A stretch of 64,000 nucleotides of DNA from Elusimicrobiota bacterium (GCA_016218575.1 JACRDN010000016.1:129306-193305); one strand, 5' to 3'. Numbered from the stretch's first letter, positions 9,506 to 20,745 are shown. Notes: generated by a model from the letters alone, not told the origin. Translations and numbers: made by a program.

Positions 9506-9963
9506 TTTGGCTCCTCCTCCCCTAATCGGAAAACCTGCACGTCCTTGTCCTCGGTCATCAGATGGGCCGTCTTCTTTTTCACGTTGATGGAGCCGGCCAC
9601 GCCCGCGACCATCTTGCCCCGATCGTCGTAAAGCTTCCCCTTGCGAAGAATGAAGCTGACTCCGAAATTGTTGTCGTTGAAAAGGGCGTACTCCACGCCG
9701 GAATCCTTCATGATCCCCTTGAGAGAGAGGTTGTGAATGTTGAAATCCTCCCGGTCGAAGGGCTTGCCGGTGTTGGCGCGCGATGAGCCGCTGGCGGCTG
9801 GGGTGAAGGGATCGCGCAGCTTTTCCACGGTATAGATGGAGCCGACGCTCGGCGCCGGCGCCGTGGAGGCCTTGACCTCGACCGGTTTGCCTCCCGGCTC
9901 GAGAGCTTGAGTCGAGACTCCGGCTAGGAACATCAAGACAGCCAAAACTTTCGCCATGTCCAT
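9502..9963 (-). CDS. pilP: Type IV pilus assembly lipoprotein PilP
   Basis: 153 aa. Signal peptide, Pro/Ala-rich linker and a C-terminal beta domain. Position between pilO and pilQ. Confidence 0.8.
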   Translation of the reverse strand: MDMAKVLAVLMFLAGVSTQALEPGGKPVEVKASTAPAPSVGSIYTVEKLRDPFTPAASGSSRANTGKPFDREDFNIHNLSLKGIMKDSGVEYALFNDNNFGVSFILRKGKLYDDRGKMVAGVAGSINVKKKTAHLMTEDKDVQVFRLGEEEPK

Positions 9964-10511
9964 CAGCCCTTGTATTGGTACGAGATCAAGGTGAAGCTTA
10001 TCTGCATCTGCCCATCGGGGCCCGGCTCGGCGTAAACCACGTTCTGGACGTTGAATATCCTCTCCTCGAGCGCCAGGCCCGCCAGGAAGCGGCCGATATT
10101 GTGGTACGAGCCGCGCACCGAGATGGGATAGGAAAGCTCGATAAAGAAGGGCTTGTCCGTCTGGCCTCCGGGCGTAAAGCTCAGAAGCGAGACATGATGC
10201 TTGTCCGCCAACCCGCTCAAGGTCACCAGAATGTCGGGCACCGACTTGTTCTTGGGCAAACGCCTCTCCGCCTCCACCGCCTTTTGGCTGAGCTCCACCA
10301 GCTCGGCCTCCAGGCGCGGCAGGCGCGCGGCCTGCCGGGTGGCCTTCTCTATCTTGGCCTCGACCTCCTCGGTCTTCTTCTTGGTATCGGCGATGCGCTG
10401 GGAGACCGGGGACCAGAAGAACATGAAATAGCTGTAGCCGAAGCCCCCCAGGAGGAGAACCCCCAGGGCCGCGTACTTCTGCTGCTCCTTGGTCAGCTTG
10501 ATCTTGGCCAT
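9963..10511 (-). CDS. pilO: Type IV pilus assembly protein PilO
   Basis: 182 aa. N-terminal TM, coiled coil and C-terminal ferredoxin-like domain. Conserved pilM-N-O-P-Q gene order. Confidence 0.8.
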   Translation of the reverse strand: MAKIKLTKEQQKYAALGVLLLGGFGYSYFMFFWSPVSQRIADTKKKTEEVEAKIEKATRQAARLPRLEAELVELSQKAVEAERRLPKNKSVPDILVTLSGLADKHHVSLLSFTPGGQTDKPFFIELSYPISVRGSYHNIGRFLAGLALEERIFNVQNVVYAEPGPDGQMQISFTLISYQYKG

Positions 10512-10512
10512 G

Positions 10513-11073
10513 TCAAAGCTGCGGCGTGTAAACCGAAATCAAAGTGAAGGTGTAGACCCGCTCCGCCCCGTCCACGGCGGTCACCGGCCCCATCTCGACT
10601 TGTCCGAACCGCCCGGACTGCTCCAGCTTCTTGATCCAAGCCGCGATATCCTCGTTGCTGCGGGAATCGGCGGACAGAGAAATCTTGAGCGGCCCGGCAG
10701 CGCTTCCCCCTCCCGAGGTGCTCAGGCTTTTCACGCGCACTCCCATGGGCACGCTGCGCACGAAATCCGACATGAAATACGGGTAAAGGGGGCGACCCTT
10801 TAGAAGGTCCGTGATCACGGAGAGCCTCGAGCGCACCGCCCCCGCCGTCTTCTCGAGCTCCTCGACCTTGGCCACGACCACCTCGAGCTTCTTGAGCTGG
10901 GCCTGCTGGGTCGCGGCATGTCTCTCCAGCCTTTTGAGTTTGAACCAATGCGCCACTGAAATGCCCACGACGAGCAGCAGGATGAACCCAGCCCCCACGC
11001 CGGCCTGGATCATCTGCTGTTTCTGCTGAGCCTTGGCCAGGATCTCAGCCGGAACAAGATTGATCTTGATCAT
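10513..11073 (-). CDS. pilN: Type IV pilus assembly protein PilN
   Basis: 186 aa. Starts MIKINLVP, a typical PilN N-terminus, then a single TM and a coiled coil. Confidence 0.8.
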   Translation of the reverse strand: MIKINLVPAEILAKAQQKQQMIQAGVGAGFILLLVVGISVAHWFKLKRLERHAATQQAQLKKLEVVVAKVEELEKTAGAVRSRLSVITDLLKGRPLYPYFMSDFVRSVPMGVRVKSLSTSGGGSAAGPLKISLSADSRSNEDIAAWIKKLEQSGRFGQVEMGPVTAVDGAERVYTFTLISVYTPQL

Positions 11074-11080
11074 GCTTGTC

Positions 11081-12241
11081 TCACACCCAATCCCGGTTGC
11101 GCCTGAGCGCCAATCCCAGGGCCACGGCGAAATCCGGGGCCAGCTCCTTGGGGAAATCCGCGGGAATCTGCTTCAAGAATGATAGAGGATCAAGCACGCT
11201 CACCGGCACCTTGAGCTCGGCGGTCAAATGCTTGGCGAGGTTCTTGACCTTGGCCGTTCCCCCCATCAGGACGATTCGCCCGATCGAGCGCTCGGCTCCC
11301 TGAGACAGATAAAAATCCACGGACCGATGGACTTCCCCGACCAGATCCTTGACCACGGTGACTATGGTCTGGGAAACGGCGAGCGCCTCCTGCTGGCCCT
11401 GTTCCACGGCCTTCTCCTTTTCCGCCGCCTCCAGGACTATCCCATGCGCCTTCTTAAGCTCCTCGGCCTTCATGAAGTCGTTCTGCATGGCCTTGGTGAT
11501 CGCCTTGGTCAAGGTCGCGCCCGATATGAAAATATCGCGCACCACGCGGGTGACTCCATTCTCGATAATGGAGAGGTTGGTCACCATATGCCCCAGGTTA
11601 AGGTAAAGGGTGGCGCCCATCTCGGATTTGGGGTCGCGCAACCTTTCATAAATGTTCTCGAGGGCGAAGGAATCCACGTCCACGATCGTGGGGAAGAGCC
11701 CCGCGGCCTGGAGAATCTCGAGCCGGGCCGCGATCAAGTCTTTCTTCGCGGCCACGAGGACGGTTTCCATTTTTTTCTGGCCTTCCTCTGTGATCTCGCT
11801 CAGGATGTGGGCGCCTAACTGGACCTCGTTGATGTCGAAAGGAATGAAGGGCTCGGCCTCGGTGGGCAAGGTCGCGGCGAGCTCCGTCTTGGTCAGCCTG
11901 GGAAATTTGACGTAGCGCACGATCACCGAGTTCCCGGAGAGAGTGGTGGCCGCGTCCTTGATCTTGACGCCCTTCTCGACAAGGAAGGCTTTAAGGGAGT
12001 TGATGGTCTGGGCCTTGCGCTCGTCGGCCGTGGCCTCGGGCTTGATGTTGAGGGGGAGGTGCCCCCAGGTCTTGAGGACCGGCCCCGCGCTTTCCTGCTT
12101 GACGTGGGCGATCTTGATGGCGTAATTGCCCATGTCCACGGCCAGGAGATCGGGAGAGCCCATGAGGAACTCCGAGAACCCCTTGGCCTTCTTGAGGGCT
12201 TCTCCCAGAGCTTCCTTTACCTTGTCCAATTTTATAGGCAT
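11081..12241 (-). CDS. pilM: Type IV pilus assembly ATPase-fold protein PilM
   Basis: Actin/FtsA-like fold with conserved N-terminal block LLAVDMGNYAIKIA. Start chosen at ATG 12241 (386 aa). An alternative ATG at 12163 (MGSPDLL) has a GGAG 6 nt upstream. The six-frame ORF extends to 12349. Confidence 0.8.
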   Translation of the reverse strand: MPIKLDKVKEALGEALKKAKGFSEFLMGSPDLLAVDMGNYAIKIAHVKQESAGPVLKTWGHLPLNIKPEATADERKAQTINSLKAFLVEKGVKIKDAATTLSGNSVIVRYVKFPRLTKTELAATLPTEAEPFIPFDINEVQLGAHILSEITEEGQKKMETVLVAAKKDLIAARLEILQAAGLFPTIVDVDSFALENIYERLRDPKSEMGATLYLNLGHMVTNLSIIENGVTRVVRDIFISGATLTKAITKAMQNDFMKAEELKKAHGIVLEAAEKEKAVEQGQQEALAVSQTIVTVVKDLVGEVHRSVDFYLSQGAERSIGRIVLMGGTAKVKNLAKHLTAELKVPVSVLDPLSFLKQIPADFPKELAPDFAVALGLALRRNRDWV

Positions 12242-12407
12242 AAAAAAAGCCGAAAATCCCCTCCGTTTCAGGGGGGTGTACTCGGCGTTTTTGCCGTCGT
12301 GAAAAGCGACGGCAAGTGCATTTATAACAGGTATGGGGAGCTTTGTCAAGACAAAGCAGTTACATAATTATTAAGGAAAGGAGACAAGCCAGGATCAATG
12401 ATTTTTG

Positions 12408-12413
12408 TATAAT
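12408..12413 (+). promoter_or_regulatory. Candidate -10 hexamer TATAAT for the plus-strand inositol cassette (short or leaderless transcript)
   Basis: TATAAT at 12408-12413 lies 6 nt upstream of the ATG at 12420, with no Shine-Dalgarno sequence. The region 12242-12419 is divergent from pilM. Confidence 0.35.
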
Positions 12414-12419
12414 AGAAAA

Positions 12420-13085
12420 ATGCCTTTTATTTTGTTCGATTTCGGGGGAACCTTGGATGGTCCCGGAACTCCCTGGCTTGAGCGTTTCCACGGCATTTAC
12501 CGCGCCGAAGGCCTGGATTTCGCGCGCGAGCGCTTCAGCCAGGCCTTTTACCGGTCGGATGACGAGCTTGCCTCGCGCTTTTCCCTGCGGGGCTTGAGTC
12601 TCGCCGAGACTTTGGAGCTGCAGGTGCAATGCGTTTTGGAAATTTTAGCTCCCGAAAAAATCGGGCTCAAGAGCCGCCTGGCCGGGCTTTTCCTAGAGGA
12701 GTGCCGACGCCATTTTCGCGGAAATCGCCCCATCCTCGAGCGCTTGAGCCGCCGCCACGGCCTCGGCATAGTTTCGAACTTTTACGGCAACCTTCGAAGC
12801 GTCTTAGATAGCGAGGGACTCCTGTCCTTCTTCCAATGCGTGGCCGATTCCGGGGCGCTCGGGATGGAGAAACCCCAGCCCGGCATATTCTTGGAAGCCC
12901 TCAAGGGCTTGAAGGCCGCCCCCGAGGAAACCTTCATGGTCGGCGATTCCGTGGCCCGGGACATGCGCGGCGCGGAAAACCTGGGCCTCAAACACGTGCT
13001 TCTATCCCCTTCCAAAAAAACCCGCTGCTGCCCGCAAGGCCTGCGCATCGAACGACTGGACGAGCTCGAGGCGGTCCTGCCGTGA
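12420..13085 (+). CDS. HAD-superfamily hydrolase (phosphatase)
   Basis: 221 aa from ATG 12420 (the ORF track begins at TTG 12405). Motif I ILFDFGGTLDG is the DxGGT variant of the HAD DxDGT motif. Motif IV reads MVGDSVARDMRGAENLG. Confidence 0.7.
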   Translation: MPFILFDFGGTLDGPGTPWLERFHGIYRAEGLDFARERFSQAFYRSDDELASRFSLRGLSLAETLELQVQCVLEILAPEKIGLKSRLAGLFLEECRRHFRGNRPILERLSRRHGLGIVSNFYGNLRSVLDSEGLLSFFQCVADSGALGMEKPQPGIFLEALKGLKAAPEETFMVGDSVARDMRGAENLGLKHVLLSPSKKTRCCPQGLRIERLDELEAVLP

Positions 13086-13780
13086 TTCGACACGCGGGCG
13101 TCATAGCGGCCGGAGACGGCCTCCGGCTCCAAGGAGCGATCGGGGCAACGGTCAAGCCCATGGCTCCCGTGGCCGGGGTCCCCTTGGTCCATTGGGTGGT
13201 GCGCTCCCTGCGCGGGGCCGGCATCGAGAGCTTCACGGTCATACTCAATTCCCGGGGAAACGCCGCCAGGGAGAGCCTGGTAAGGGAATTCCCTGCCGTG
13301 TCCTGGACCTTCCTGGTCCAGGACACGGCTTCCTCATGGGAAAGCTTCAGGCTGGTGGCCCAAGCCCTCTCCCAAAAAGCCGACATCTTTCTCATGAGCA
13401 CGGTAGACGCCCTGATGCCTCCCCAAGAGGCCGAGCGCTTCGCCCGGGAGGCTGCGACGAGCCCCGCCCCGGCGGGGCTGGCCCTCACCTCCTTCATGGA
13501 CGACGAGAAGCCGCTTTGGGCGGAGCTGGGGGAAAACGGCCTGGTCTCGGCCTTGGGGCCTTCCTGCCGAAGCCGCTCCCGGGCCACGGCGGGGCTCTAT
13601 TTCTTGACAAAGGCCGTCGCCGACGCCATGCCCGCGGCCGAGCGTCATTCCAAGCTGCGGGACTATTGGCAGTCCCTGCTCGATTCGAAGACTCCCGTGG
13701 CCGGAATCGCCCTGGGAAAGACCTTGGACGTGGATAGGCCTCGGGATCTCGCGGCCGCGGAGCGTTTCGCCACATGGTGA
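13082..13780 (+). CDS. Nucleotidyltransferase (MobA/IspD-like NTP-transferase fold)
   Basis: 232 aa. GTG start overlaps the HAD stop (GTGA at 13082-13085). Glycine-rich N-terminus GVIAAGDGLRLQG...KPMAPVAGVPLVHW matches the GxGxR(L) sugar-/alcohol-phosphate nucleotidyltransferase signature. The six-frame ORF is extended upstream to 12836. Confidence 0.6.
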   Translation: MIRHAGVIAAGDGLRLQGAIGATVKPMAPVAGVPLVHWVVRSLRGAGIESFTVILNSRGNAARESLVREFPAVSWTFLVQDTASSWESFRLVAQALSQKADIFLMSTVDALMPPQEAERFAREAATSPAPAGLALTSFMDDEKPLWAELGENGLVSALGPSCRSRSRATAGLYFLTKAVADAMPAAERHSKLRDYWQSLLDSKTPVAGIALGKTLDVDRPRDLAAAERFATW

Positions 13781-14628
13781 GCGCGCTCGGCATTTTCCGC
13801 GAGCTCCATAACTCCCCCAACCGGGAGAACGACGACGCGGCCATCCTCAAGGCCGTCATGGAGCAGTTGGAGCTCCTGAAAGTCCGGGCCATGGTCCTGG
13901 ATCCCGAGGCCGCGGACCAGCAGGATTTGAAGGCCTGGGACATGCTGGTTCCCATGTGCGAGTCCTATGCCAGACTCATGCGCCTCAAGGCCTTGAAGGG
14001 TTCCGGGGCTCCCGTCATCGTCAACTCTCCAGAAGCGGTGCTGGCCTGCTACAGGACCGAGATGCTGGCGGCCTTCGAGCGCTCGCCCGAGCTCGATTTC
14101 CCGGAAACAGAACTGAGAATAGTGACGGGCGATCGCCCGCAGCCTTTCCCGGCTTTCGGCTCGTCCACGGGGGTATGGGCCAAGCGCGGGGACGTGCACA
14201 ACACCCGCGGCGGCCGCGATGTGGTCTTCGCGAAGTCCTCCCAGGAGCTCGAGGCCGTCCGCAAGGATTTCGCCCGACGCGAGATCACTCACATGCTTCT
14301 GCAAAGGCACGTCGACGGAGACCTGATCAAATTCTACGGGGTCGGGCCCGGCCAGTGGTTCACCTGGTTCTATCATGACCCCGCCTCGGCCCGCAGGCTC
14401 TCCTTCGAGGTGGAGGAGCTGGCCCTCCAGGGAGAGCTCGCCGCGCGAGCCGTGGGGCTCGAGGTTTTCGGCGGCGACGCCATCGTGTCGGCCGCTGGAA
14501 CGATTTGCGTCATTGACATCAACTCCTGGCCGAGCTTCGCCCGCGTGCGGGCCGAGGCCGCGGTGCAGATCGCCAGGCACCTGCGCAAGAAGCTCACGAC
14601 CCTGCGGGTCCCGGGAAGACAACCATGA
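13774..14628 (+). CDS. ATP-grasp family ligase
   Basis: 284 aa. ATP-grasp elements present (...VWAKRGDVHNTRGG..., ...IKFYGVGPGQWFTWFYHD..., C-terminal GGDAIVSAAGTICVIDINSWPSF). ATG overlaps the upstream stop (ATGGTGA). Confidence 0.65.
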   Translation: MVSALGIFRELHNSPNRENDDAAILKAVMEQLELLKVRAMVLDPEAADQQDLKAWDMLVPMCESYARLMRLKALKGSGAPVIVNSPEAVLACYRTEMLAAFERSPELDFPETELRIVTGDRPQPFPAFGSSTGVWAKRGDVHNTRGGRDVVFAKSSQELEAVRKDFARREITHMLLQRHVDGDLIKFYGVGPGQWFTWFYHDPASARRLSFEVEELALQGELAARAVGLEVFGGDAIVSAAGTICVIDINSWPSFARVRAEAAVQIARHLRKKLTTLRVPGRQP

Positions 14629-15959
14629 ATATCGCGTCAGAATCCAGCGCCGCCGGTCCCAAATCACAGGCTCTATTCGAGGAGGAGCAGGCCTACATCG
14701 CTCCCGGCCTGCAGTCCGTGGCCCTCTATTCGAGAATCGCCCTGGAGGAGGGGCGGGGCGTCTGGCTCACCGACGCGGACGGACGGCGCTACCTGGACTT
14801 CATGGCCGGAATCGGAGTGGCCTCGGTGGGACATGCCCATCCCGAGCACGCCAAAGCCCTGGCAGAGCAGGCCGCTAGGCTCAGCGTGGGCTCCTTCACC
14901 ACTCGGAGGCGCCTGGCCTTCCTCAAGAACCTAGCCTCGGTGACTCCGGCGGGCCTTTCCAGGGTCCAACTCTACTCCTCCGGGGCCGAGGCGGTGGAAG
15001 CGGCCCTGCGCCTAGCCAAGAGCCACACCAAGAATTTCGAGATGATCAGCTTCTGGGGCGGTTTTCACGGCAAGACCGGCGGGGTTATGGGCCTTTTGGG
15101 GGACGGCTTCAAGCACGCCTTGGGGCCCTTGATGCCCGGCCTCTACCTCTCTCCCTATCCCGACCCACGCCGCTGCCCCTTGGGCGCGCCGGAACCCCAT
15201 GACTGCGCGGCCCACTGCCTCGAGTTCCTGCGCGAGATGATCCAGCGCGAGACCTCCCGCTCCATAGCGGCCATTATCCTCGAGCCCATCCAGGGCACGG
15301 CCGGCAACGTGGTTCCTCCTCCGGGATTTTTCAAGGGAGTGCGGGACATCGCGCGCGAGAACGGAGCCCTATTCATCTCTGACGAGATGATCACCGGGTT
15401 CGGCCGCACCGGGAAATGGTTCGGCTGCGAGCACGAGGAGGTCGTCCCCGACATCATGACCGTGGGCAAGGGCATGGCGGGAGGCTTCCCCCTATCGGGA
15501 ATCGTCACGAGCGACTCCATCGCCCAGGCCAAGCCCTTCGCCAACCCGAGCGGCTCCTCATCGAGCTACGGCGGCAACCCCTTGGCCGCGGCCGCGGCCG
15601 ACGCCACCCTCTCAATCATGAAAAGGGAGAACCTGCCGGCCAACGCGCAAAGAGTCGGCGCGGCTCTGTTGGCGCGCCTGGGGGAGCTGCGGAGCCGTTC
15701 GCCCCTCGTGGGCCGGGTGCGCGGGCGGGGGCTCATGATAGGCGTGGATCTGGTCCATCCCAAGACCGGAAAGCCTCTTCCCGGGCCTCTCTGCCGGGAG
15801 CTTTTCAGCGACTGCCTGGACCGTGGCCTTCTCAGCATGTGCTACAGCCCGGCTCTGCGCATCAACCCGCCCCTCACCATCACCGAGGCGGAGGCCCTTC
15901 AGGGAGCCGACATCCTGGAGGACTCCCTAGGCGTCCTGGCGCGAAGGCACGGCATTTAA
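14625..15959 (+). CDS. Class III pyridoxal-phosphate aminotransferase
   Basis: 444 aa. Class-III PLP aminotransferase blocks present, including the PLP-lysine region DEMITGFGRTGKWFGCEHEEVVPDIMTVGKGMAGG. ATGA overlap with the upstream gene. Confidence 0.8.
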   Translation: MNIASESSAAGPKSQALFEEEQAYIAPGLQSVALYSRIALEEGRGVWLTDADGRRYLDFMAGIGVASVGHAHPEHAKALAEQAARLSVGSFTTRRRLAFLKNLASVTPAGLSRVQLYSSGAEAVEAALRLAKSHTKNFEMISFWGGFHGKTGGVMGLLGDGFKHALGPLMPGLYLSPYPDPRRCPLGAPEPHDCAAHCLEFLREMIQRETSRSIAAIILEPIQGTAGNVVPPPGFFKGVRDIARENGALFISDEMITGFGRTGKWFGCEHEEVVPDIMTVGKGMAGGFPLSGIVTSDSIAQAKPFANPSGSSSSYGGNPLAAAAADATLSIMKRENLPANAQRVGAALLARLGELRSRSPLVGRVRGRGLMIGVDLVHPKTGKPLPGPLCRELFSDCLDRGLLSMCYSPALRINPPLTITEAEALQGADILEDSLGVLARRHGI

Positions 15960-16975
15960 TGAAGAACCGCCTCAAGGGAGCCTTGGCCGGCTTCGGGCAA
16001 GTGGCCCAAAGGGCCCATGCCCCGGCCTTCGCCTCGTCCGAGCATTTCTCCATCGTCGCCGTGGCGGAGGAGAATCCCGCGCGTCTGGAGGCGGCCAAGG
16101 CCTTCTTCCCGCGAGTCCGGCTCTATTCCAGCCTGGAGGTTCTCTTGCGCTCGGAAAGCGAGCTGGATTTCATCTCCATCGCCACCCCCCCCTTCCTGCA
16201 CGCGCCCCAAACCCTGGCGGCCTTGGAGCGGGGCTGTCATGTGCTCTGCGAGAAGCCATTGGCCTTGAGCCGAGAGGAATTGGACGCCATGGAGGAACTC
16301 GCCCGAGCCCGCGGCCGCGTCGTCTTCACCGTCCACAATTGGGCCCATGCCGCCCAGTGGAAGAAAGCCTTGGATTTGATCCAGGCCGGAACCTTGGGCG
16401 AAATACGCCACGCAGAGCTGCACGTCCTGCGCCAGAAGCCGGCCTCGAGCGCGCTGGCGGATTGGAGGCGCGACAGGAGCCTCGCCGGCGGCGGGATACT
16501 CCTCGACCACGGCTGGCACAATCTTTACCTGATCTACCGCCTGCTAGGCTGCCCAGAGGCGCGGCCCAAGGTCAGCGCCAGGTTCTGGCGGGAAAGCCCC
16601 TCCCATGTCGAGGACGAAGCGACCGTGCTCCTGGATTTTCTCGCCTCCTCCGCCCTTCTGCACCTAAGCTGGAGGTCCTTTGCCCGGACCAACTGGGCCG
16701 TGGTTTACGGGACCCGAGGCAGGCTTGAACTCGCGGACAACGAGCTCCGGCTTGAGCTGTCCTCCGGCCATTGCGAAACCTTCCAGTTCCAGGAAAAGCT
16801 CTCCCAGCTTTCGGCCCACCCGAGTTGGATGGCCTCTCTCATCGAGGAATTCCACTCCGAGCTCCTGCAGCCGGGGCCCCGACGCAATCTGGCGGAAGCC
16901 CGTTTTTGCCTGTCCGCCATAGAGGAAGCCTACCGCCAAAGCCCTGAGCCCTGCCCGGCCGGAGCGCCCGCGTGA
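15959..16975 (+). CDS. Gfo/Idh/MocA-family NAD(P)-dependent oxidoreductase (inositol/sugar dehydrogenase-like)
   Basis: 338 aa from ATG 15959, which overlaps the aminotransferase stop (TAATG). The six-frame ORF's 181-codon upstream extension is discounted. N-terminal Rossmann fold (LAGFGQVAQRAHAPAF) and the family motif EKPLALSREELDAM. Confidence 0.7.
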   Translation: MKNRLKGALAGFGQVAQRAHAPAFASSEHFSIVAVAEENPARLEAAKAFFPRVRLYSSLEVLLRSESELDFISIATPPFLHAPQTLAALERGCHVLCEKPLALSREELDAMEELARARGRVVFTVHNWAHAAQWKKALDLIQAGTLGEIRHAELHVLRQKPASSALADWRRDRSLAGGGILLDHGWHNLYLIYRLLGCPEARPKVSARFWRESPSHVEDEATVLLDFLASSALLHLSWRSFARTNWAVVYGTRGRLELADNELRLELSSGHCETFQFQEKLSQLSAHPSWMASLIEEFHSELLQPGPRRNLAEARFCLSAIEEAYRQSPEPCPAGAPA

Positions 16976-18147
16976 GCCAAGCTTCCCGGGTCGTCCTGGT
17001 CGTGGCCCATCCCCGGCTCGCTTTCGAGCGTTTGGGAGGGCTCACCATCTTGGAAAGGCAGCTTTTCACCTTGGCGCGCGCCGGGGCCGGAAAGGTTTGG
17101 ATCGCCATGCCCAAGCCAGACGCCGCGGCGCTTTGCGCCCTGCGCCTGCCTCCGGGGCTCGATCTCTCATGGTCCCACCGCTCCGGCCTGGTCCCGGGAG
17201 AGTGCGAGCCGCCGTATCTCACTTTGTCGGGCGACCACCTCCTGCGCCTGGAGGCATTGCGCGGCATCCTCTCGGCCGAATACGCGGCCCATTCCCGAAT
17301 GGTCGACGCCGAGGGCCGGACCGTGGTCCAGGCCGTGCCGTTCCGGTCCGAGACCATTCCTCCCGCCCATGAGGAAAGGCTCTCACAGGGAGCCTTCCTC
17401 CATCTGCGCATCCCAGCCGGGCAGGGGTCGAGCCTCGATTGGCTCATGGCCTCTGGAGGCAAGAGTCAGGACGGCTTCATGGCCCGGAACTTCGACCGGC
17501 ACATATCGCTCGCCTTGTCGCGATTTCTGCTGGACACCCGGGTGACCCCCAACATGATGACGTTGTTTAGCTGCGCCTTGGGGCTCTTCGGCACTGTCTT
17601 CTTCCTAAACCCCAATCATCACGCCATGAGCTTGGCCGGGGCCTGCTTGATATGGCTTCACTCGGTTCTGGACGGCTGCGACGGGGAATTGGCGCGGCTG
17701 AAATTCCTGGAAAGCCCTCTCGGAGCCGACATCGACTTTTGGGGCGACAACCTGGTGCACCTGTCGCTTTTCGGCTGCCTGGCCTGGGGCTTCCACAAAG
17801 CCGACCACAGTCTCCTGCCGCTGATACTGGGAACCTCGGCCTGCCTGGGTGCCCTGGGCTCGGCCCGGCTGGCATACGTTGATAGACGCTCTAAACGGCA
17901 AGCCCCCGCCTTGTCGAGCCCGGTGGGCGGCTCGGCGACGGCCTTGCAGCGCCTCGAGACCATTTTAGCTCAAAGAGACTTCATCTACCTTCTGCTGCTT
18001 CTGGCCTACTTCGACAAGACCTACGAGGTCCTCTGGGCCGGAGCCGTGGGCTCCGTCCTTTTTCTCATCATGATGATGAAACTCAGGAGATCACCGCATG
18101 AACACCCGCAAACACGCCTCGAAATCCCCTCCAAAATCCACAGTTGA
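16972..18147 (+). CDS. Bifunctional nucleotidyltransferase / CDP-alcohol phosphatidyltransferase (IPCT/DIPPS-like)
   Basis: 391 aa. N-terminal ~150 aa cytosolic NTP-transferase-like domain (VVLVVAHP...GGLTILERQLFTLARAGAGKVWI). C-terminal membrane domain carries the CDP-alcohol phosphotransferase motif DGCDGELARLKFLESPLGADIDFWGDNLVH (D-G-x2-A-R-x8-G-x3-D-x3-D). GTG start overlaps the upstream stop (GTGA). Confidence 0.7.
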   Translation: MSQASRVVLVVAHPRLAFERLGGLTILERQLFTLARAGAGKVWIAMPKPDAAALCALRLPPGLDLSWSHRSGLVPGECEPPYLTLSGDHLLRLEALRGILSAEYAAHSRMVDAEGRTVVQAVPFRSETIPPAHEERLSQGAFLHLRIPAGQGSSLDWLMASGGKSQDGFMARNFDRHISLALSRFLLDTRVTPNMMTLFSCALGLFGTVFFLNPNHHAMSLAGACLIWLHSVLDGCDGELARLKFLESPLGADIDFWGDNLVHLSLFGCLAWGFHKADHSLLPLILGTSACLGALGSARLAYVDRRSKRQAPALSSPVGGSATALQRLETILAQRDFIYLLLLLAYFDKTYEVLWAGAVGSVLFLIMMMKLRRSPHEHPQTRLEIPSKIHS

Positions 18148-19528
18148 GCCGGCTTCCGGCCGCTTGGGAGTGCTCCTCCCGGGCATGGGAGCGGTCACCA
18201 GCACCTTCATCGCGGGCGTCGAGCTCTTCAAGAAGGGCTTGGGAGAGCCCGTGGGGTCGCTCACGCAGCTGCAGACCATTCGCCTGGGCAAGCGCTATGA
18301 GAACCGCAGCCCCCTGATCAAGGATTTCGTGCCCTTGGCGGATTTGAGAGACCTCGTGTTCGGAGGCTGGGACCTCTACCCAGACAACATGCACGAGGCC
18401 GCGGTCAAGGCGGAGGTCTTGAGCCCCGCCCAGATCGCCCCGGTGCGCCGGGAGCTCGCGGCCATACGCCCCATGCCCGCGGTGTTCGATCCCGCCTACG
18501 TCAAGAACCTCAAAACGGGCTTCGCCAAAAAGGGGAACAGCAAATGGGACCTGGCCCGGCAAATCGTCGCCGACATCCAGGCCTTCAAGAAAAAGAACAA
18601 GCTCGAGCGCCTGGTCATGCTGTGGTGCGGCTCGACGGAAATCCTTCCCGAGCCGAGCCACGTCCACGAGACCTTGGCGGCCTTCGAGGAAGGCCTGCGC
18701 AGGAGCGCCCCGGAGATTCCCCCCTCCATGATCTACGCCTACGCGGCGGTGAGCCTCGGCATCCCCTACGGCAACGGCGCGCCCAACCTGTCCGCGGACG
18801 TCCCGGCCCTGGTCGAGCTCGCCGAGAAAACCGGCGCGCCCATCGCCGGCAAGGACTTCAAGACCGGGCAAACCTTGATGAAGACCACGATCGCCCCCAT
18901 GCTCAAGGCCCGGATGCTCGCCCTGCGCGGCTGGTACTCGACCAACATACTCGGCAACCGCGACGGCGAGGTCCTCGACGACCCCGGCTCATTCAAGACC
19001 AAGGAGAAGAGCAAGATGTCGGTGCTCGACTCCATCCTGGACCCGGGGCTCTACCCCCGGCTCTACGGGCAATACTTCCACAAGGTGCGCATAGACTACT
19101 ACCCCCCACGCGGGGATGCCAAGGAGGGCTGGGACAACATAGACATCTCGGGCTGGATGGGCATGCCCATGCAGATCAAGATCAACTTCCTCTGCCGCGA
19201 CTCGATCTTGGCCGCCCCGATCGTCCTGGATCTGGTGCTGTTCCTCGATCTGGCCAAGCGCGCGGGGCTCAAGGGCATCCAGGAGTGGCTCTCGTTCTAC
19301 TTCAAGTCCCCGCAATGCCGCGAGGACTTGAAGCCCGAACACGATATTTTCATACAGCACCTCAAGCTCAAGAACACCTTGCGCCTGCTCATGGGCGAAG
19401 AGGTCCTCGACCACTCGGGGCTAGACTACTACGACGCCAAGAAGGGGACCCCGGTCGCGGCCCCGGCGCCAAAACCGGTCAAGGAAAAGAAGTCAAAGAC
19501 CCTGGCCGCTAGCGCGCGCCGGGCTTGA
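18098..19528 (+). CDS. ino1: myo-Inositol-1-phosphate synthase (bacterial/archaeal MIPS type)
   Basis: 476 aa. NAD-binding N-terminus LGVLLPGMGAVTSTFIAGVE and conserved MIPS blocks (...LWCGSTE..., ...NGAPNLSAD..., ...DFKTGQTLMKTTIAPMLKARML...). GGAGA sits 8 nt before the ATG. It overlaps the preceding gene by 50 nt. Confidence 0.75.
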   Translation: MNTRKHASKSPPKSTVEPASGRLGVLLPGMGAVTSTFIAGVELFKKGLGEPVGSLTQLQTIRLGKRYENRSPLIKDFVPLADLRDLVFGGWDLYPDNMHEAAVKAEVLSPAQIAPVRRELAAIRPMPAVFDPAYVKNLKTGFAKKGNSKWDLARQIVADIQAFKKKNKLERLVMLWCGSTEILPEPSHVHETLAAFEEGLRRSAPEIPPSMIYAYAAVSLGIPYGNGAPNLSADVPALVELAEKTGAPIAGKDFKTGQTLMKTTIAPMLKARMLALRGWYSTNILGNRDGEVLDDPGSFKTKEKSKMSVLDSILDPGLYPRLYGQYFHKVRIDYYPPRGDAKEGWDNIDISGWMGMPMQIKINFLCRDSILAAPIVLDLVLFLDLAKRAGLKGIQEWLSFYFKSPQCREDLKPEHDIFIQHLKLKNTLRLLMGEEVLDHSGLDYYDAKKGTPVAAPAPKPVKEKKSKTLAASARRA

Positions 19529-20621
19529 CCACGGTCCAGCGGAACTCCTTGACGCCATAATTGCCGGCGAGGTCTCCCGCGCTCAGGAGCAGGCGGTGCT
19601 CCCCAGGCGCCCGGGGGAATTGATACGGCCCCTGCCATTGAGTTCCCTCGAAGCTGAACCCCAGGTTGATCGAGAACCGTCTTTCCTCATAGTCCCCCCG
19701 GGACTGGCTGGGCCAGAAAAGGTCGCGCACGTAGACTTCCTCAGAATTACCCGGCAAGAGGTCGAATTTCCAGACCTGGCGCCATGATCCGTCATCCACC
19801 TTGAAGTGAAGAGAGTAAGGCGGTTCGTAGAATTTCCTGTGGTGGATGAGGTCTCGAACCTCAGCCACGATATGGTAATCCGCGGACACCTCGGCGGATT
19901 CGAGCCTTCGGCCATCCTGGACCAAGGCGATATCCACGATCTCCGGCGCCGAGACATCGAAGACGGGCTTCAGGAAAATGAGCGGGTTGAGAAGAAGACC
20001 GTTTTTATCCAAAATCGTCAAATGGATATGGTTGTATTTCTGATTGAACACTTCAAACTTGGAAGATGACAGCCACTCAACAACCGCACCTAAAATCGCC
20101 CCCTCTGGAATGGCCTTGTTTTCGCCAAAGGCCCGATAAATCTCATTAGGAATCGAATCGCCTTGGAGATGCCAATATCTCCACGTATAGCCCGCCTCGT
20201 CCTTGACCGCGACCCCGCAATATTTTCCGCAATCCCCTCCGCTCATCTCAACCACTTTCCCTCCCGCCGAGGCTCTGACCACGGCGCCGGCTTCGGCGCG
20301 AATGTCTATGCCCCTGTGAAAGTACGGACCTTTGCTATCATCATATTCTGGATAGTTTTGATAGGAGCCGAAAATATGCCCCAAGGTCTTCATTTCGACA
20401 GGCCATTCATACTGTTGCCTGGGCGCCGGATAAAGCAACGCTGGAATACGCTCCGGCGGGGTCAATTCCTTGTGGGCAACAGCCTGGGGACCGCTTTCCT
20501 CTTTGAGCCCCTGGAGAATAGCTCTTGCGCTGAAGCCTTTGTCGAAATCCACGGCCCCTGCCCCGGACGATGCCCGGGCACAGAGGCTAAGAACCAGCGC
20601 AACTAGGCCGTATGCCCTCAT
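19509..20621 (-). CDS. Secreted M23-family (LytM-like) metallopeptidase
   Basis: 370 aa from internal start MRAYGLVALVLSLCARASSGAG (signal peptide). M23 motifs HRGIDI and HIHL. The six-frame ORF extends to 20903. Convergent 20-nt overlap with the MIPS gene. Confidence 0.7.
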   Translation of the reverse strand: MRAYGLVALVLSLCARASSGAGAVDFDKGFSARAILQGLKEESGPQAVAHKELTPPERIPALLYPAPRQQYEWPVEMKTLGHIFGSYQNYPEYDDSKGPYFHRGIDIRAEAGAVVRASAGGKVVEMSGGDCGKYCGVAVKDEAGYTWRYWHLQGDSIPNEIYRAFGENKAIPEGAILGAVVEWLSSSKFEVFNQKYNHIHLTILDKNGLLLNPLIFLKPVFDVSAPEIVDIALVQDGRRLESAEVSADYHIVAEVRDLIHHRKFYEPPYSLHFKVDDGSWRQVWKFDLLPGNSEEVYVRDLFWPSQSRGDYEERRFSINLGFSFEGTQWQGPYQFPRAPGEHRLLLSAGDLAGNYGVKEFRWTVVKPGAR

Positions 20622-20707
20622 GGCTTTAGTGTAGCGGGGGGGCCCGGGGTTGAAAGGGCCGTTATACCCAGATCCAGCTGGGTCCAAAGACCCAAAATGA
20701 GAAAAAG

Positions 20708-20743
20708 TTATCCCCAAGACTTCGCGGCGAAGTTTTGGGGATA
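20708..20743. repeat. 36-bp near-perfect palindromic element, copy A
   Basis: TTATCCCCAAGACTTCGCGGCGAAGTTTTGGGGATA. Its two arms pair over 14 bp when G-U pairs are allowed. It ends 2 nt before the first candidate bamA start. A second copy lies at 34128-34163. Confidence 0.6.
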
Positions 20744-20745
20744 CC

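What the first reader, a model, noticed from the sequence alone, without database searches (positions are those of the whole stretch)
12405..19528. Seven-gene, fully overlap-coupled cassette predicted to make an aminated, CDP-activated inositol-phosphate derivative
All seven junctions use overlapping stop/start codons: HAD phosphatase, NTP-transferase, ATP-grasp ligase, class-III aminotransferase, Gfo/Idh/MocA dehydrogenase, an IPCT/DIPPS-like NTase-CDP-alcohol-phosphatidyltransferase fusion, and myo-inositol-1-phosphate synthase.

MIPS plus a CDP-alcohol transferase is the core of inositol-phospholipid and di-inositol-phosphate pathways. A dehydrogenase of the inositol-dehydrogenase family plus an aminotransferase is the classic route from inositol to inosamine (an aminocyclitol). 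An ATP-grasp enzyme could then acylate that amine with an amino acid or carboxylate.

I know of no described pathway that combines all of these. The product could be a novel amino-inositol phospholipid head group or a compatible solute. This is the best candidate for an undescribed system in the window.
Basis: partly seen in the sequence, partly recalled or inferred. Interest (0 to 1): 0.85.

Follow-up and report, generated by a model that had tools for sequence, protein, structure and literature searches.

The report
Conserved inositol-amine head-group operon
An Elusimicrobia operon of seven translationally coupled genes, conserved as a block in at least eight bacterial phyla, most likely builds a CDP-activated, aminated inositol-phosphate head group for an undescribed membrane lipid; no product has been shown.

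Summary
Seven co-directional genes (12420-19528) have overlapping junctions of 4, 4-7, 4, 1, 4 and 50 nt: HAD hydrolase, nucleotidyltransferase (NT), ATP-grasp enzyme, class-III aminotransferase (AT), Gfo/Idh/MocA dehydrogenase (DH), CDP-alcohol phosphotransferase (CAP) and myo-inositol-1-phosphate synthase (MIPS).

The block is not a local oddity. Among 49 loci anchored on the ATP-grasp gene, 45-48 keep each of HAD, NT, AT, DH and CAP. These come from Elusimicrobiota, Methylomirabilota/Rokubacteria, Acidobacteriota, Verrucomicrobiota, Alphaproteobacteria, Chloroflexia and Desulfobacterota.

- CAP is AF2299-like, with a degenerate nucleotidyltransferase-like N-domain. It is not a true IPCT/DIPPS fusion.
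- The ATP-grasp belongs to the core. It is fused to NT, HAD or CAP in other lineages and is present in Phocaeicola vulgatus without AT/DH. It is therefore unlikely to be dedicated to acylating the amine. A cyclitol kinase feeding NT is equally or more plausible.
- The core (NT, ATP-grasp, CAP, HAD, MIPS) matches the unproven "alternative inositol-lipid cluster" of Bacteroidota (Heaver 2022). DH plus AT is the added module.

Outside Elusimicrobia the cassette sits beside an HpnL-like flippase-type gene and often beside hpnN, hpnM, hpnA and shc. This points to a membrane lipid rather than a solute. The product is unknown, and no matching paper was found.

The parts
12343..12371 (+). Weak sigma-70-like promoter match in the 56-70 bp divergent region between pilM and g1
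   Evidence: 9 of 12 hexamer matches. This is a consensus match only, not evidence of function.
12420..13085 (+). g1: HAD-IA (REG-2-like) hydrolase; a TTG at 12405 is an alternative start
   Evidence: Pfam HAD_2/Hydrolase E 1e-14. Best NCBIfam hit is DREG-2, below cutoff. Motif I is FD[FY]GGT in every phylum, so the nucleophile Asp is kept and Asp+2 is replaced by Gly. Present in 48 of 49 loci.
13082..13780 (+). g2: sugar/cyclitol-phosphate nucleotidyl(cytidylyl)transferase, the active NT of the system
   Evidence: NTP_transf_3 and NTP_transferase above Pfam cutoffs. Weak match to the IPCT half of IPCT/DIPPS and to MurU. Aligns with T. maritima inositol-1-P cytidylyltransferase 4jd0, with the GxGxR Arg, the following Lys and the mid-domain Asp conserved (PMC12275187). 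Fused to the ATP-grasp in other lineages.
13774..14628 (+). g3: member of an unnamed ATP-grasp family (no Pfam model); candidate cyclitol(-phosphate) kinase or amide ligase
14625..15959 (+). g4: class-III (omega-type, GabT-like) PLP aminotransferase
   Evidence: Aminotran_3 E 2e-106. No NCBIfam equivalog cutoff is reached. Closest solved structures are GabT enzymes, E 1e-74. 52-60 % identical across phyla and present in 46 of 49 loci.
15959..16975 (+). g5: Gfo/Idh/MocA NAD(P)-dependent sugar/cyclitol dehydrogenase
   Evidence: GFO_IDH_MocA N- and C-domains. The EKP and GGG-x-L-x-D-x-G-x-H motifs are readable in the translation. IolG equivalog 56.5 bits against a cutoff of 355. PDB relatives are sugar and inositol dehydrogenases. 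Present in 46 of 49 loci.
16972..17451 (+). g6 N-domain (aa 1-160): degenerate cytidylyltransferase-like cytosolic domain
   Evidence: No Pfam hit. The consensus lacks GxGxR. The predicted alpha/beta fold superposes on the AF2299 N-domain and weakly on RmlA, IspD and MurU.
17452..18147 (+). g6 C-domain: six-helix CDP-alcohol phosphotransferase with an intact catalytic motif
   Evidence: CDP-OH_P_transf E 1e-9. Motif D234GCDGELAR-x8-GADID-FWGD. AF2299 E 1.6e-23 by sequence. Full-length Foldseek TM 0.62/0.71 to 4o6n.
18098..19528 (+). g7: myo-inositol-1-phosphate synthase (long type)
   Evidence: NAD_binding_5 E 1e-96 and Inos-1-P_synth E 6e-34. 68-83 % identical within Elusimicrobiota and up to 70 % in other phyla.

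Best explanation
The seven genes are one operon encoding a de novo route from glucose-6-phosphate to a CDP-activated, inositol-derived cyclitol phosphate. The cyclitol-phosphate is then transferred onto an alcohol acceptor.

Steps supported at family level:
- g7 (MIPS) makes 1L-myo-inositol-1-phosphate.
- g2 (NT, IMPCT-like) makes a CDP-cyclitol from CTP and a cyclitol phosphate.
- g6 (AF2299-type CDP-alcohol phosphotransferase) transfers cyclitol-phosphate to an acceptor hydroxyl and releases CMP.

Steps inferred from family plus context:
- g5 (NAD-dependent Gfo/Idh/MocA dehydrogenase) oxidises one ring CHOH to an inosose.
- g4 (class-III aminotransferase) converts the inosose to an inosamine, so the head group carries an amine.
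- g1 (HAD) removes a phosphate. This happens either early (inositol-P to inositol, as an IMPase surrogate before oxidation and amination) or late (from a phosphorylated transfer product, as in the PIP, PGP and DIPP pathways).
- g3 (ATP-grasp) most likely phosphorylates the free or mono-phosphorylated cyclitol to give the substrate of g2. This would be a Kennedy-type kinase, cytidylyltransferase, phosphotransferase sequence.

One linear order uses each enzyme once: MIPS, HAD, DH, AT, ATP-grasp kinase, NT, CAP.

HAD + NT + ATP-grasp + CAP (+ MIPS) is the ancestral core, shared with the Bacteroidota 'alternative inositol-lipid cluster'. DH + AT is an add-on that turns inositol into an aminocyclitol.

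The end product is most likely the polar head of a membrane lipid destined for the cell envelope, a zwitterionic 'inosamine-phospho-lipid'. It is less likely to be ordinary PI or DIP.
For: - Operon structure and family assignments.
- Block conservation in about eight phyla with the same order HAD-NT-AG-AT-DH-CAP(-MIPS).
- Functional core shown by natural fusions HAD-NT-AG, NT-AG (five representatives), AG-CAP and AG-HAD.
- P. vulgatus has NT-AG-CAP-(HpnL-like)-HAD-MFS...MIPS without AT/DH. Heaver 2022 showed this species makes inositol-phosphoryl-dihydroceramide although it lacks the B. thetaiotaomicron-type genes, and proposed CDP-inositol as the intermediate.
- g2 keeps the Arg, Lys and Asp that align with T. 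maritima inositol-1-P cytidylyltransferase.
- g6 has an intact catalytic motif and AF2299-like architecture.
- For the kinase reading of g3: the invariant D235...D248-x-N250-x-WPSF aligns with ITPK4 'VDLNYLPSF', while RimK and PsnB have ExN. ITPK1 and PPIP5K2 are among the top fold matches. The family has eight conserved basic residues.
- For a lipid product: an HpnL-like flippase-type membrane gene lies next to CAP in 24 of 33 non-Elusimicrobia loci of at least 12 kb, including both full-length Bacteroidota loci, all seven Acidobacteriota and 7 of 9 Alphaproteobacteria.
- Also for a lipid product: hpnN, hpnM and hpnA score above the NCBIfam cutoffs, with shc, hpnD/E and MlaA nearby, in Alphaproteobacteria (8 of 9), Methylomirabilota (4 of 8) and Desulfobacterota.
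- A minimal HAD-AG-CAP set lies next to a sphingolipid-delta4-desaturase-like gene in L081.
- In Elusimicrobia the operon always lies between pilMNOPQ and bamA-skp-lpxDCAIB.
Against: - No product or enzyme activity has been measured for any member, including the Bacteroidota cluster, which Heaver calls 'putative'.
- By sequence and fold g6 is closest to AF2299 and AfDIPPS. Clarke et al. (PMC4634129) state that these do not process lipids, and that the six-helix architecture goes with soluble acceptors.
- The P. vulgatus CAP is a divergent paralogue. It gives no BLAST hit to g6 and has a different C-terminus. Its lipid phenotype therefore transfers only weakly.
- The HAD lacks the Asp+2 general acid/base of textbook HAD phosphatases.
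- The site and order of oxidation and amination, and the regiochemistry, are pure inference.
- Elusimicrobia loci show neither the HpnL-like gene nor hpn genes (0 of 24).
- Synteny with pil and lpx genes within one phylum may be mere inheritance.
Confidence: 0.5

Rival explanations
1. The product is a soluble phosphodiester (compatible solute or cytoplasmic metabolite) made as in the DIP, glycero-phospho-inositol and diglycerol-phosphate pathways. NT makes a CDP-(amino)cyclitol. The AF2299-like CAP condenses it with a soluble phosphorylated alcohol (inositol-1-P or glycerol-3-P). HAD removes the remaining phosphate. The result is, for example, an amino analogue of di-myo-inositol phosphate.
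For: - g6 is closest to AF2299 (E 1.6e-23; TM 0.62/0.71) and next to AfIPCT-DIPPS.
- PMC4634129 says neither enzyme processes lipids and that AF2299 binds CDP-glycerol.
- The best NCBIfam hit of g6 is the DIPPS half of IPCT/DIPPS.
- MIPS + NT + CAP + phosphatase is exactly the enzyme set of the DIP pathway.
- Elusimicrobia loci lack a flippase-like gene.
Against: - The IPCT/DIPPS equivalog score is 72.8 against a cutoff of 580.
- Carriers are mesophilic soil, groundwater and gut lineages, not hyperthermophiles (record titles).
- The cassette is linked to HpnL-like flippase-type genes, HpnN, HpnM, MlaA, shc and a sphingolipid desaturase in other phyla.
- The related Bacteroidota cluster correlates with inositol sphingolipid production.
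Confidence: 0.2
2. One reading: the ATP-grasp enzyme is a carboxylate-amine ligase that N-acylates the inosamine made by DH and AT with an amino acid or another carboxylate. The final head group or solute is then an N-acyl or aminoacyl inosamine phosphate.
For: - The best profile hit in the PDB is the graspetide ligase PsnB, E 1e-8.
- Weak Pfam and NCBIfam hits go to RimK and MptN.
- g3 lies directly upstream of g4 with a 4-nt overlap.
Against: - The same family is present and conserved where AT and DH are absent: P. vulgatus and the Acidobacteriota minimal sets in L076 and L081.
- Fusions are to NT, HAD and CAP only.
- The metal triad is DxN with a following PSF, as in ITPKs, rather than ExN.
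- No carboxylate-supplying enzyme is encoded in the operon.
Confidence: 0.2
3. The cassette makes plain inositol lipids (PI or inositol-phosphoceramide), as proposed for Bacteroidota. DH and AT serve another purpose: inositol catabolism or salvage, supply of a different acceptor, or regulation.
For: - The core genes are shared with the Bacteroidota cluster, whose carriers make unmodified inositol-phosphoryl-dihydroceramide.
- g4 and g5 reach no specific functional model.
Against: - AT and DH sit inside the operon between AG and CAP in 46 of 49 loci across phyla.
- AT is the second most conserved protein of the set, 52-60 % identical between phyla. Such retention is hard to explain unless they act on the pathway intermediate.
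Confidence: 0.07

Closest known systems
'Putative alternative inositol lipid cluster' of Bacteroides/Phocaeicola vulgatus and Prevotella (Heaver et al. 2022, Nat Microbiol; BVU_RS13095 NT, BVU_RS13105 CDP-alcohol phosphatidyltransferase, BVU_RS13115 HAD, plus MIPS)
   Same: - Contains NT, CDP-alcohol phosphotransferase, HAD hydrolase and MIPS.
- Also contains an orthologue of the ATP-grasp gene (34 % identity to g3, lying between NT and CAP). This gene is not named in the passages of the paper I read.
- The HAD motif FDYGGT is identical in type.
   Different: - It has no dehydrogenase or aminotransferase.
- Its CAP is a divergent 316-aa protein without the AF2299-like N-domain.
- It carries an HpnL-like flippase-type gene, an MFS transporter and a pfkB kinase.
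- Its function is itself unproven.
AF2299 of Archaeoglobus fulgidus (PDB 4o6m/4o6n/4q7c), a CDP-alcohol phosphotransferase with a cytidylyltransferase-like N-domain
   Same: - Domain architecture, six-helix catalytic domain and DxxDGxxAR...GxxxDxxxD motif.
- Best sequence hit (E 1.6e-23) and best fold hit (TM 0.62/0.71, 24 % identity).
   Different: - Archaeal, with an undefined physiological reaction.
- Crystallised with CDP-glycerol and reported as not lipid-processing.
- Not known to sit in a cassette like this one.
IPCT/DIPPS pathway for di-myo-inositol phosphate (MIPS, CTP:inositol-1-P cytidylyltransferase, DIPP synthase, phosphatase) of hyperthermophiles
   Same: - Same logic: MIPS, then CDP-inositol, then a CDP-alcohol phosphotransferase, then dephosphorylation.
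- g2 aligns with T. maritima IMPCT 4jd0.
- g6 aligns with the DIPPS half.
   Different: - The NT is a separate gene, and the N-domain of g6 is degenerate.
- The equivalog cutoff is missed by a wide margin (72.8 against 580).
- Three extra enzymes are present (ATP-grasp, DH, AT).
- The hosts are mesophiles.
scyllo-Inosamine routes of streptomycin and rhizopine biosynthesis, and NtdABC kanosamine biosynthesis (established knowledge, not tested here)
   Same: - The chemical logic of a Gfo/Idh/MocA dehydrogenase making a keto-cyclitol or keto-sugar, followed by transamination.
- In streptomycin biosynthesis, phosphorylation of the inosamine follows.
- A HAD phosphatase partner occurs in NtdABC.
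   Different: - Those aminotransferases are DegT/StsC-type, whereas g4 is class III (GabT-like).
- Those pathways have no CDP activation and no CDP-alcohol phosphotransferase.
ATP-grasp inositol-phosphate kinases (ITPK1/ITPK4, PPIP5K2) and RimK/LysX/ArgX amide ligases
   Same: - C-terminal DxN-x-x-PSF motif shared with ITPKs.
- Overall fold slightly nearer to RimK and ArgX.
   Different: - Only 12-18 % identity.
- Below the gathering scores of both Pfam families (RimK 17.4 against 21; Ins134_P3_kin 13 against 23).
- It forms its own family of about 1000 representative clusters.

Membership tests
myo-Inositol-1-phosphate synthase (g7) | Both Pfam domains (NAD_binding_5, Inos-1-P_synth) above the gathering score | tested here: met
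   324.6 bits against a cutoff of 25, and 116.8 bits against 27.
Bifunctional IPCT/DIPPS (NF041135) (g6) | Score above the curated equivalog cutoff across both halves | tested here: not met
   72.8 bits against a cutoff of 580. Only profile positions 224-414 (the DIPPS half) are matched.
Bifunctional IPCT/DIPPS (g6) | Catalytically competent N-terminal cytidylyltransferase with the GxGxR signature | tested here: not met
   The N-terminus reads VVLVVAHPRLAFERLGG. The family consensus lacks GxGxR, and no Pfam NTase hit is found.
AF2299-type CDP-alcohol phosphotransferase (g6) | Cytidylyltransferase-like N-domain plus six-helix CDP-AP domain with DxxDGxxAR-x8-GxxxDxxxD | tested here: met
   Sequence E 1.6e-23. 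Motif starts at residue 234. Full-length Foldseek E 7e-15, TM 0.62/0.71.
PIP synthase (NF045883) (g6) | Equivalog cutoff; use of CDP-diacylglycerol as donor | tested here: not met
   43.7 bits against a cutoff of 170. Donor specificity cannot be tested with these tools.
CTP:inositol-1-phosphate cytidylyltransferase-like NT (g2) | NTP_transferase fold with GxGxR, the downstream Lys and the mid-domain Asp aligned to T. maritima IMPCT | tested here: met
   Pfam above cutoffs. Alignment to 4jd0 keeps the Arg, Lys and Asp. Overall similarity is weak (E 9e-4), so substrate identity is not established.
RimK-type amide ligase / ITPK1-type inositol-phosphate kinase (g3) | Pfam gathering score of PF08443 or PF05770 | tested here: not met
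   RimK 17.4 bits against a cutoff of 21, and Ins134_P3_kin 13 against 23. Of 71 family members, 18 touch RimK and 14 touch Ins134_P3_kin at E<=1.
ATP-grasp superfamily (g3) | Three-domain ATP-grasp fold with two ATP-binding Lys residues and an acidic/Asn metal triad | tested here: met
   [not shown]
Canonical HAD phosphatase (g1) | Motif I DxDx(T/V) with Asp+2 as general acid/base | tested here: not met
   Motif is D-F/Y-G-G-T in all 17 sequences compared, from eight or more phyla. The HAD fold itself is met. Whether REG-2-like members generally lack Asp+2 rests on my recollection.
Acetylornithine / GABA aminotransferase equivalogs (g4) | Curated NCBIfam cutoffs | tested here: not met
   The best hit, PRK05769, scores 373.5 against 552. 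GabT TIGR00700 scores 273.7 against 506.65 and ArgD 267.9 against 410. Class-III fold membership is met.
myo-Inositol 2-dehydrogenase IolG (g5) | TIGR04380 equivalog cutoff | tested here: not met
   56.5 bits against a cutoff of 355. Gfo/Idh/MocA superfamily membership is met.
Bacteroidota 'alternative inositol lipid cluster' (Heaver 2022) | Adjacent NT, CDP-alcohol phosphotransferase, HAD hydrolase and MIPS | tested here: met
   All four are present, plus the shared ATP-grasp orthologue. The window's cassette additionally carries DH and AT, and its CAP is of a different subtype.
Bacteroidota 'alternative inositol lipid cluster' | Carrier produces inositol-phosphoryl lipids | not testable with these tools
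   Needs lipidomics of a carrier or of a heterologous host.

The most novel reading that the evidence does not exclude
The cassette makes a previously unknown class of zwitterionic envelope lipid whose head group is an aminocyclitol (inosamine) phosphate. The lipid is widespread in uncultivated soil and groundwater phyla. In hopanoid producers it is functionally tied to the hopanoid and outer-membrane lipid-trafficking machinery (HpnL, HpnM, HpnN, MlaA), and is possibly even attached to a hopanoid polyol or to ceramide. In this reading its ATP-grasp enzyme is the first bacterial ATP-grasp cyclitol kinase working in a Kennedy-type pathway.
Probability: 0.3. Interest if true: 0.85.

Novelty: new variant of a known kind. 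Interest (0 to 1): 0.7.

Why it matters
- Inositol lipids are considered rare in bacteria, and the only proposed CDP-inositol route (Bacteroidota) is unproven.
- This cassette shows that an extended form of that route is conserved as a block in at least eight phyla, many of them uncultivated. The extension adds an oxidation/transamination module and an unnamed ATP-grasp family of about 1000 representative clusters.
- If the prediction holds, it defines a new polar head group (inosamine phosphate) that could be searched for in environmental lipidomes. It would also assign function to a new ATP-grasp family.
- It would give a testable role to the orphan hopanoid-associated genes hpnL, hpnM and hpnA, next to which the cassette lies in Alphaproteobacteria and Methylomirabilota.
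- It offers a direct genetic test in a cultured gut bacterium: deleting the P. vulgatus ATP-grasp gene addresses how the alternative inositol-lipid pathway really works.

Tried and rejected
- An exact-sequence look-up of g4 found no record, so the source contig is not in the gene index. The organism was inferred from homologues.
- A single-sequence PDB search with g3 returned only noise (beta-lactamases, E about 0.1).
- Pfam scans of 71 ATP-grasp family members did not discriminate between families: RimK 18, ATPgrasp_ST 17 and Ins134_P3_kin 14, all sub-threshold.
- The promoter and terminator scan gave nothing above shuffles for terminators and only a weak promoter match.
- All ten full-text searches found nothing beyond Heaver 2022.
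- The AF2299 structure paper (Sciara 2014) is not held, so its discussion of the physiological substrate could not be read.
- I considered BHT-cyclitol-ether biosynthesis (HpnI/J/K) and rejected it. No such genes appeared among the recurrent neighbours, that cyclitol derives from GlcNAc through an ether bond, and a CDP-alcohol phosphotransferase makes phosphodiesters.
- I considered HpnO-type amination of hopanoids and rejected it as a general explanation. Elusimicrobia (0 of 24 loci) and Acidobacteriota loci carry the cassette without hpn genes nearby.
- I considered mycothiol-type and aminoglycoside clusters and rejected them, because there are no glycosyltransferase, ligase/acetyltransferase or DegT-type aminotransferase genes.
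- tblastn found no squalene-hopene cyclase, HpnN, HpnM or HpnL-like gene in the 64-kb window.

Full report
**1. What is in the sequence**

Between a divergently transcribed pilMNOPQ cluster (7601-12349, minus strand) and a convergent M23-peptidase-like gene (19509-20903, minus strand) lie seven + strand ORFs without any intergenic space. The junctions are:
- g1/g2: GTGA, 4 nt.
- g2/g3: ATGGTGA, 7 or 4 nt.
- g3/g4: ATGA, 4 nt.
- g4/g5: TAATG, 1 nt.
- g5/g6: GTGA, 4 nt.
- g6/g7: a 50-nt overlap. The only in-frame start upstream of the conserved N-terminal strand of MIPS is ATG 18098. Gene calls in three homologous loci overlap by 35-100 nt.

So there are six junctions, not seven, and all overlap.

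**2. Organism and conservation**

All close homologues of g6 and g3 (47-70 % identity) come from Elusimicrobia MAGs from groundwater, soil and sediment. Three look-ups returned the same seven genes in the same order, always between pilM and bamA-skp-lpxD-lpxC-fabZ-lpxA-lpxI-lpxB. The window has the same downstream genes.

Within one phylum this could be inheritance. I therefore scanned one genome per GTDB species with an alignment of the ATP-grasp protein, which is the most family-specific marker.

tblastn with the seven window proteins shows the order HAD-NT-AG-AT-DH-CAP(-MIPS) in the following groups:
- Elusimicrobiota
- Methylomirabilota/Rokubacteria
- Acidobacteriota (Thermoanaerobaculia)
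- Verrucomicrobiota (Terrimicrobium)
- Alphaproteobacteria (Pseudolabrys and others, with CAP inverted)
- Chloroflexia
- Desulfobacterota
- one 'Nitrosotalea'-labelled contig that is probably mis-binned

Among 49 loci with sufficient flank, the counts are HAD 48, NT 47, AT 46, DH 46 and CAP 45. With both MIPS types counted, MIPS is within 10 kb in 43 of 57 loci. The aminotransferase is 52-60 % identical between phyla, more than any partner except MIPS.

**3. The core and the add-on**

*Bacteroidota version.* Phocaeicola vulgatus and two other Bacteroidota genomes carry NT and the ATP-grasp. P. vulgatus additionally shows a divergent CAP, an HpnL-like flippase-type membrane protein, HAD, an MFS transporter, a pfkB kinase and MIPS. 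It has no AT or DH.

This is the 'putative alternative inositol lipid cluster' of Heaver et al. 2022. They named the NT (BVU_RS13095), the phosphatidyltransferase (BVU_RS13105) and the HAD (BVU_RS13115). They showed that B. vulgatus and P. veroralis make inositol-phosphoryl-dihydroceramide without the B. thetaiotaomicron-type genes, and they proposed CDP-inositol as the intermediate. The ATP-grasp gene lying between BVU_RS13095 and BVU_RS13105 is not discussed in the passages I read.

*Natural fusions.* An exhaustive profile search of 1.8 billion representatives found 1023 members of the ATP-grasp family. Multi-domain members are HAD-NT-AG, NT-AG (five examples scanned), AG-CAP and AG-HAD. No AG-AT or AG-DH fusion was seen.

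*Minimal sets.* Two Acidobacteriota loci carry a minimal set: an unknown 300-aa domain fused to HAD, then AG, then CAP, without NT, AT or DH. In L081 this set is followed by a sphingolipid-delta4-desaturase-like gene.

Together these results make HAD + (NT) + ATP-grasp + CAP the functional core. DH + AT is a module added to it in most non-Bacteroidota lineages.

**4. Individual enzymes**

*g6 (CAP).* The catalytic motif is intact (D234GCDGELAR-x8-GADID-FWGD) and there are about six membrane helices. The closest solved protein is AF2299 (E 1.6e-23; full-length TM 0.62/0.71), ahead of AfIPCT-DIPPS and the PIP synthases. The 160-residue N-domain has the fold of the AF2299 'cytidylyltransferase-like' domain but lacks GxGxR. 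The IPCT/DIPPS equivalog is missed (72.8 against 580), and only its DIPPS half aligns. The NTase-CDP-AP 'fusion' is therefore structural, not bifunctional.

*g2 (NT).* This is the active NT. It keeps GxGxR, the downstream Lys and the mid-domain Asp that align with T. maritima inositol-1-phosphate cytidylyltransferase 4jd0 (the identity of 4JD0 comes from PMC12275187).

*g4 and g5 (AT and DH).* g4 is GabT-like (E 1e-74) and g5 is a generic sugar/cyclitol dehydrogenase. Neither reaches any curated functional cutoff.

*g1 (HAD).* It has FD[FY]GGT in every phylum. The nucleophile Asp is present but the Asp+2 acid/base of textbook HAD phosphatases is absent, so 'phosphatase' is a provisional label.

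From my own knowledge, not tested here:
- ITPK1 can phosphorylate the MIPS product Ins3P.
- A kinase-then-cytidylyltransferase pairing is the logic of the Kennedy pathway, of AmgK/MurU and of Campylobacter Cj1418/Cj1416.
- The streptomycin pathway phosphorylates scyllo-inosamine after dehydrogenation and transamination of myo-inositol.

I therefore rate a kinase at about 0.5-0.55, an amide ligase at about 0.3 and other functions at the remainder.

**5. Lipid or solute?**

*For a solute.* g6 resembles AF2299 and DIPPS. Clarke et al. state that these enzymes do not process lipids and have the six-helix architecture typical of soluble acceptors.

*For a lipid.* Clustering all ORFs of the 84 loci revealed recurrent neighbours outside Elusimicrobia:
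- An LPG_synthase_TM/HpnL-like 'flippase-like' protein occurs in 24 of 33 loci of at least 12 kb. It usually abuts CAP and is also present inside the P. vulgatus cluster.
- HpnN scores 1217 bits against a cutoff of 1100.
- HpnM scores 176 against 160.
- HpnA scores 385 against 368.
- Squalene-hopene cyclase scores 743 against 431.
- HpnD/E and MlaA are also found nearby.

In L074 the cassette lies between hpnD/E-shc and hpnN-hpnM. At least one of hpnN, hpnM, hpnA or shc is present in 8 of 9 alphaproteobacterial loci and 4 of 8 Methylomirabilota loci.

Adding the sphingolipid desaturase next to the minimal set, the Bacteroidota lipid phenotype and the position next to outer-membrane biogenesis genes in Elusimicrobia, I favour an envelope lipid at about 0.6 over a solute at about 0.2-0.25.

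*Caveats.* Elusimicrobia loci show neither the HpnL-like gene nor hpn genes (0 of 24). The window holds no shc, hpnN, hpnM or hpnL homologue. The Bacteroidota CAP is a different subtype.

**6. Proposed mechanism**

Shown at family level:
- MIPS converts G6P to inositol-1-P.
- NT plus CTP gives a CDP-cyclitol.
- CAP transfers cyclitol-phosphate to an alcohol.

Inferred:
- DH and AT convert a ring CHOH to CH-NH2.
- The ATP-grasp supplies the phosphorylated substrate for NT.
- HAD removes a phosphate either before oxidation and amination or from the transfer product.

A linear order that uses every enzyme once is MIPS, HAD, DH, AT, AG, NT, CAP.

For the DH/AT-less Bacteroidota version the same logic would reposition the phosphate: MIPS gives 1L-Ins-1-P, and dephosphorylation followed by rephosphorylation could give the 1D-1-phosphate needed for canonical PI or IPC linkage. 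This is speculation. Regiochemistry, the amino donor and the acceptor are unknown.

**7. Comparison and novelty**

The cassette works like the DIP and Kennedy-type CDP-alcohol pathways. It shares its core with the unproven Bacteroidota cluster. It fails the membership tests for IPCT/DIPPS, PIP synthase, IolG, GabT/ArgD, RimK and ITPK1 (see the membership table).

Ten full-text searches found no description of the seven-gene combination, of an inosamine lipid or of a MIPS-hopanoid link. The library lacks most subscription journals, so absence there is not proof of absence.

I classify it as a new variant of a known kind: a CDP-inositol-type head-group pathway extended by an amination module and containing an unnamed ATP-grasp family.

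**8. Verdict**

Interest is 0.7. The cassette is broadly conserved, experimentally tractable in cultured P. vulgatus and by heterologous expression, and linked to orphan hopanoid-associated genes. Everything about the product is still inference.

Noticed in passing
window 27975-29009 (+): A second Gfo/Idh/MocA oxidoreductase gene is wedged between lpxI (27193-27978) and lpxB (to 30112) in the lipid A cluster. The same arrangement is seen in L002. It resembles GnnA (UDP-GlcNAc 3-dehydrogenase), which would imply a GlcN3N-type lipid A. No partner aminotransferase was looked for.
   Followed up: partly
window 19509-20903 (-): An M23-peptidase-like gene converges on the operon. Its 3' end overlaps the MIPS stop region by 20 nt. 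It is absent at this position in L001-L003, where other small genes follow MIPS.
   Followed up: no
window 34199-35848 (-): A 549-aa ORF with no Pfam hit at E<=1e-5, lying between a RelA/SpoT gene and recG.
   Followed up: no
L081 8391-13460 and L076 1285-5026: Acidobacteriota carry a minimal variant: a conserved unknown 300-aa N-domain fused to the HAD (58 % identical between the two loci), then the ATP-grasp, then CAP, with no NT, AT or DH. In L081 a sphingolipid-delta4-desaturase/fatty-acid-desaturase gene follows. L076 holds this set and a full amination-type set on the same contig.
   Followed up: partly
L045 324-17802: In Rokubacteria CSP1-6 the gene order is HpnM, a phosphonopyruvate-decarboxylase-like gene (287 bits, cutoff 312), a second CAP, an HpnL-like gene, short-type MIPS, CAP, HAD-NT-AG-AT-DH, an ArnT-like glycosyltransferase and HpnN. 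This hints at a larger head-group diversification island that may include a phosphonate.
   Followed up: partly
L074 60-20530; L044; L046; L054; L055: The cassette is embedded in hopanoid clusters containing hpnD/E, shc, hpnN, hpnM, hpnA and MlaA. Alphaproteobacteria and Chloroflexia use a short, actinobacterial-type MIPS (TIGR03450-like, 462 bits) placed upstream of HAD. Elusimicrobia, Verrucomicrobia and Acidobacteria use the long type placed downstream of CAP.
   Followed up: partly
L003 12500-15012 / L004 8985-11497: In one Elusimicrobia lineage MIPS is followed by DUF347, two hypothetical genes and an ICMT/PEMT-type (phospholipid/isoprenylcysteine) methyltransferase. This could be an N-methylase for an amino-lipid head group.
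   Followed up: no
L082 (record labelled Nitrosotalea sp.): This contig carries the bacterial cassette. It shares flanking gene families (alanyl-tRNA synthetase, a CopD-like gene and others) with the Methylomirabilia locus L036. It is probably a mis-binned bacterial contig rather than an archaeal occurrence.
   Followed up: partly
L030 and L031 (Elusimicrobiales / 'Elusimicrobium minutum' MAG): L030 has HAD-NT-AG-AT-DH-MIPS but no CAP between DH and MIPS. L031 has only AG-AT-DH, preceded by PEP carboxykinase and a class-I/II aminotransferase. Partial cassettes therefore exist within the phylum.
   Followed up: partly
window 12420-12460 and all loci (HAD motif I): The cassette HAD has the invariant motif FD[FY]GGT[LI]D, with Gly in place of the catalytic Asp+2. 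It may not be a simple phosphatase. Heaver et al. speculated on a transferase role for the Bacteroidota orthologue.
   Followed up: partly
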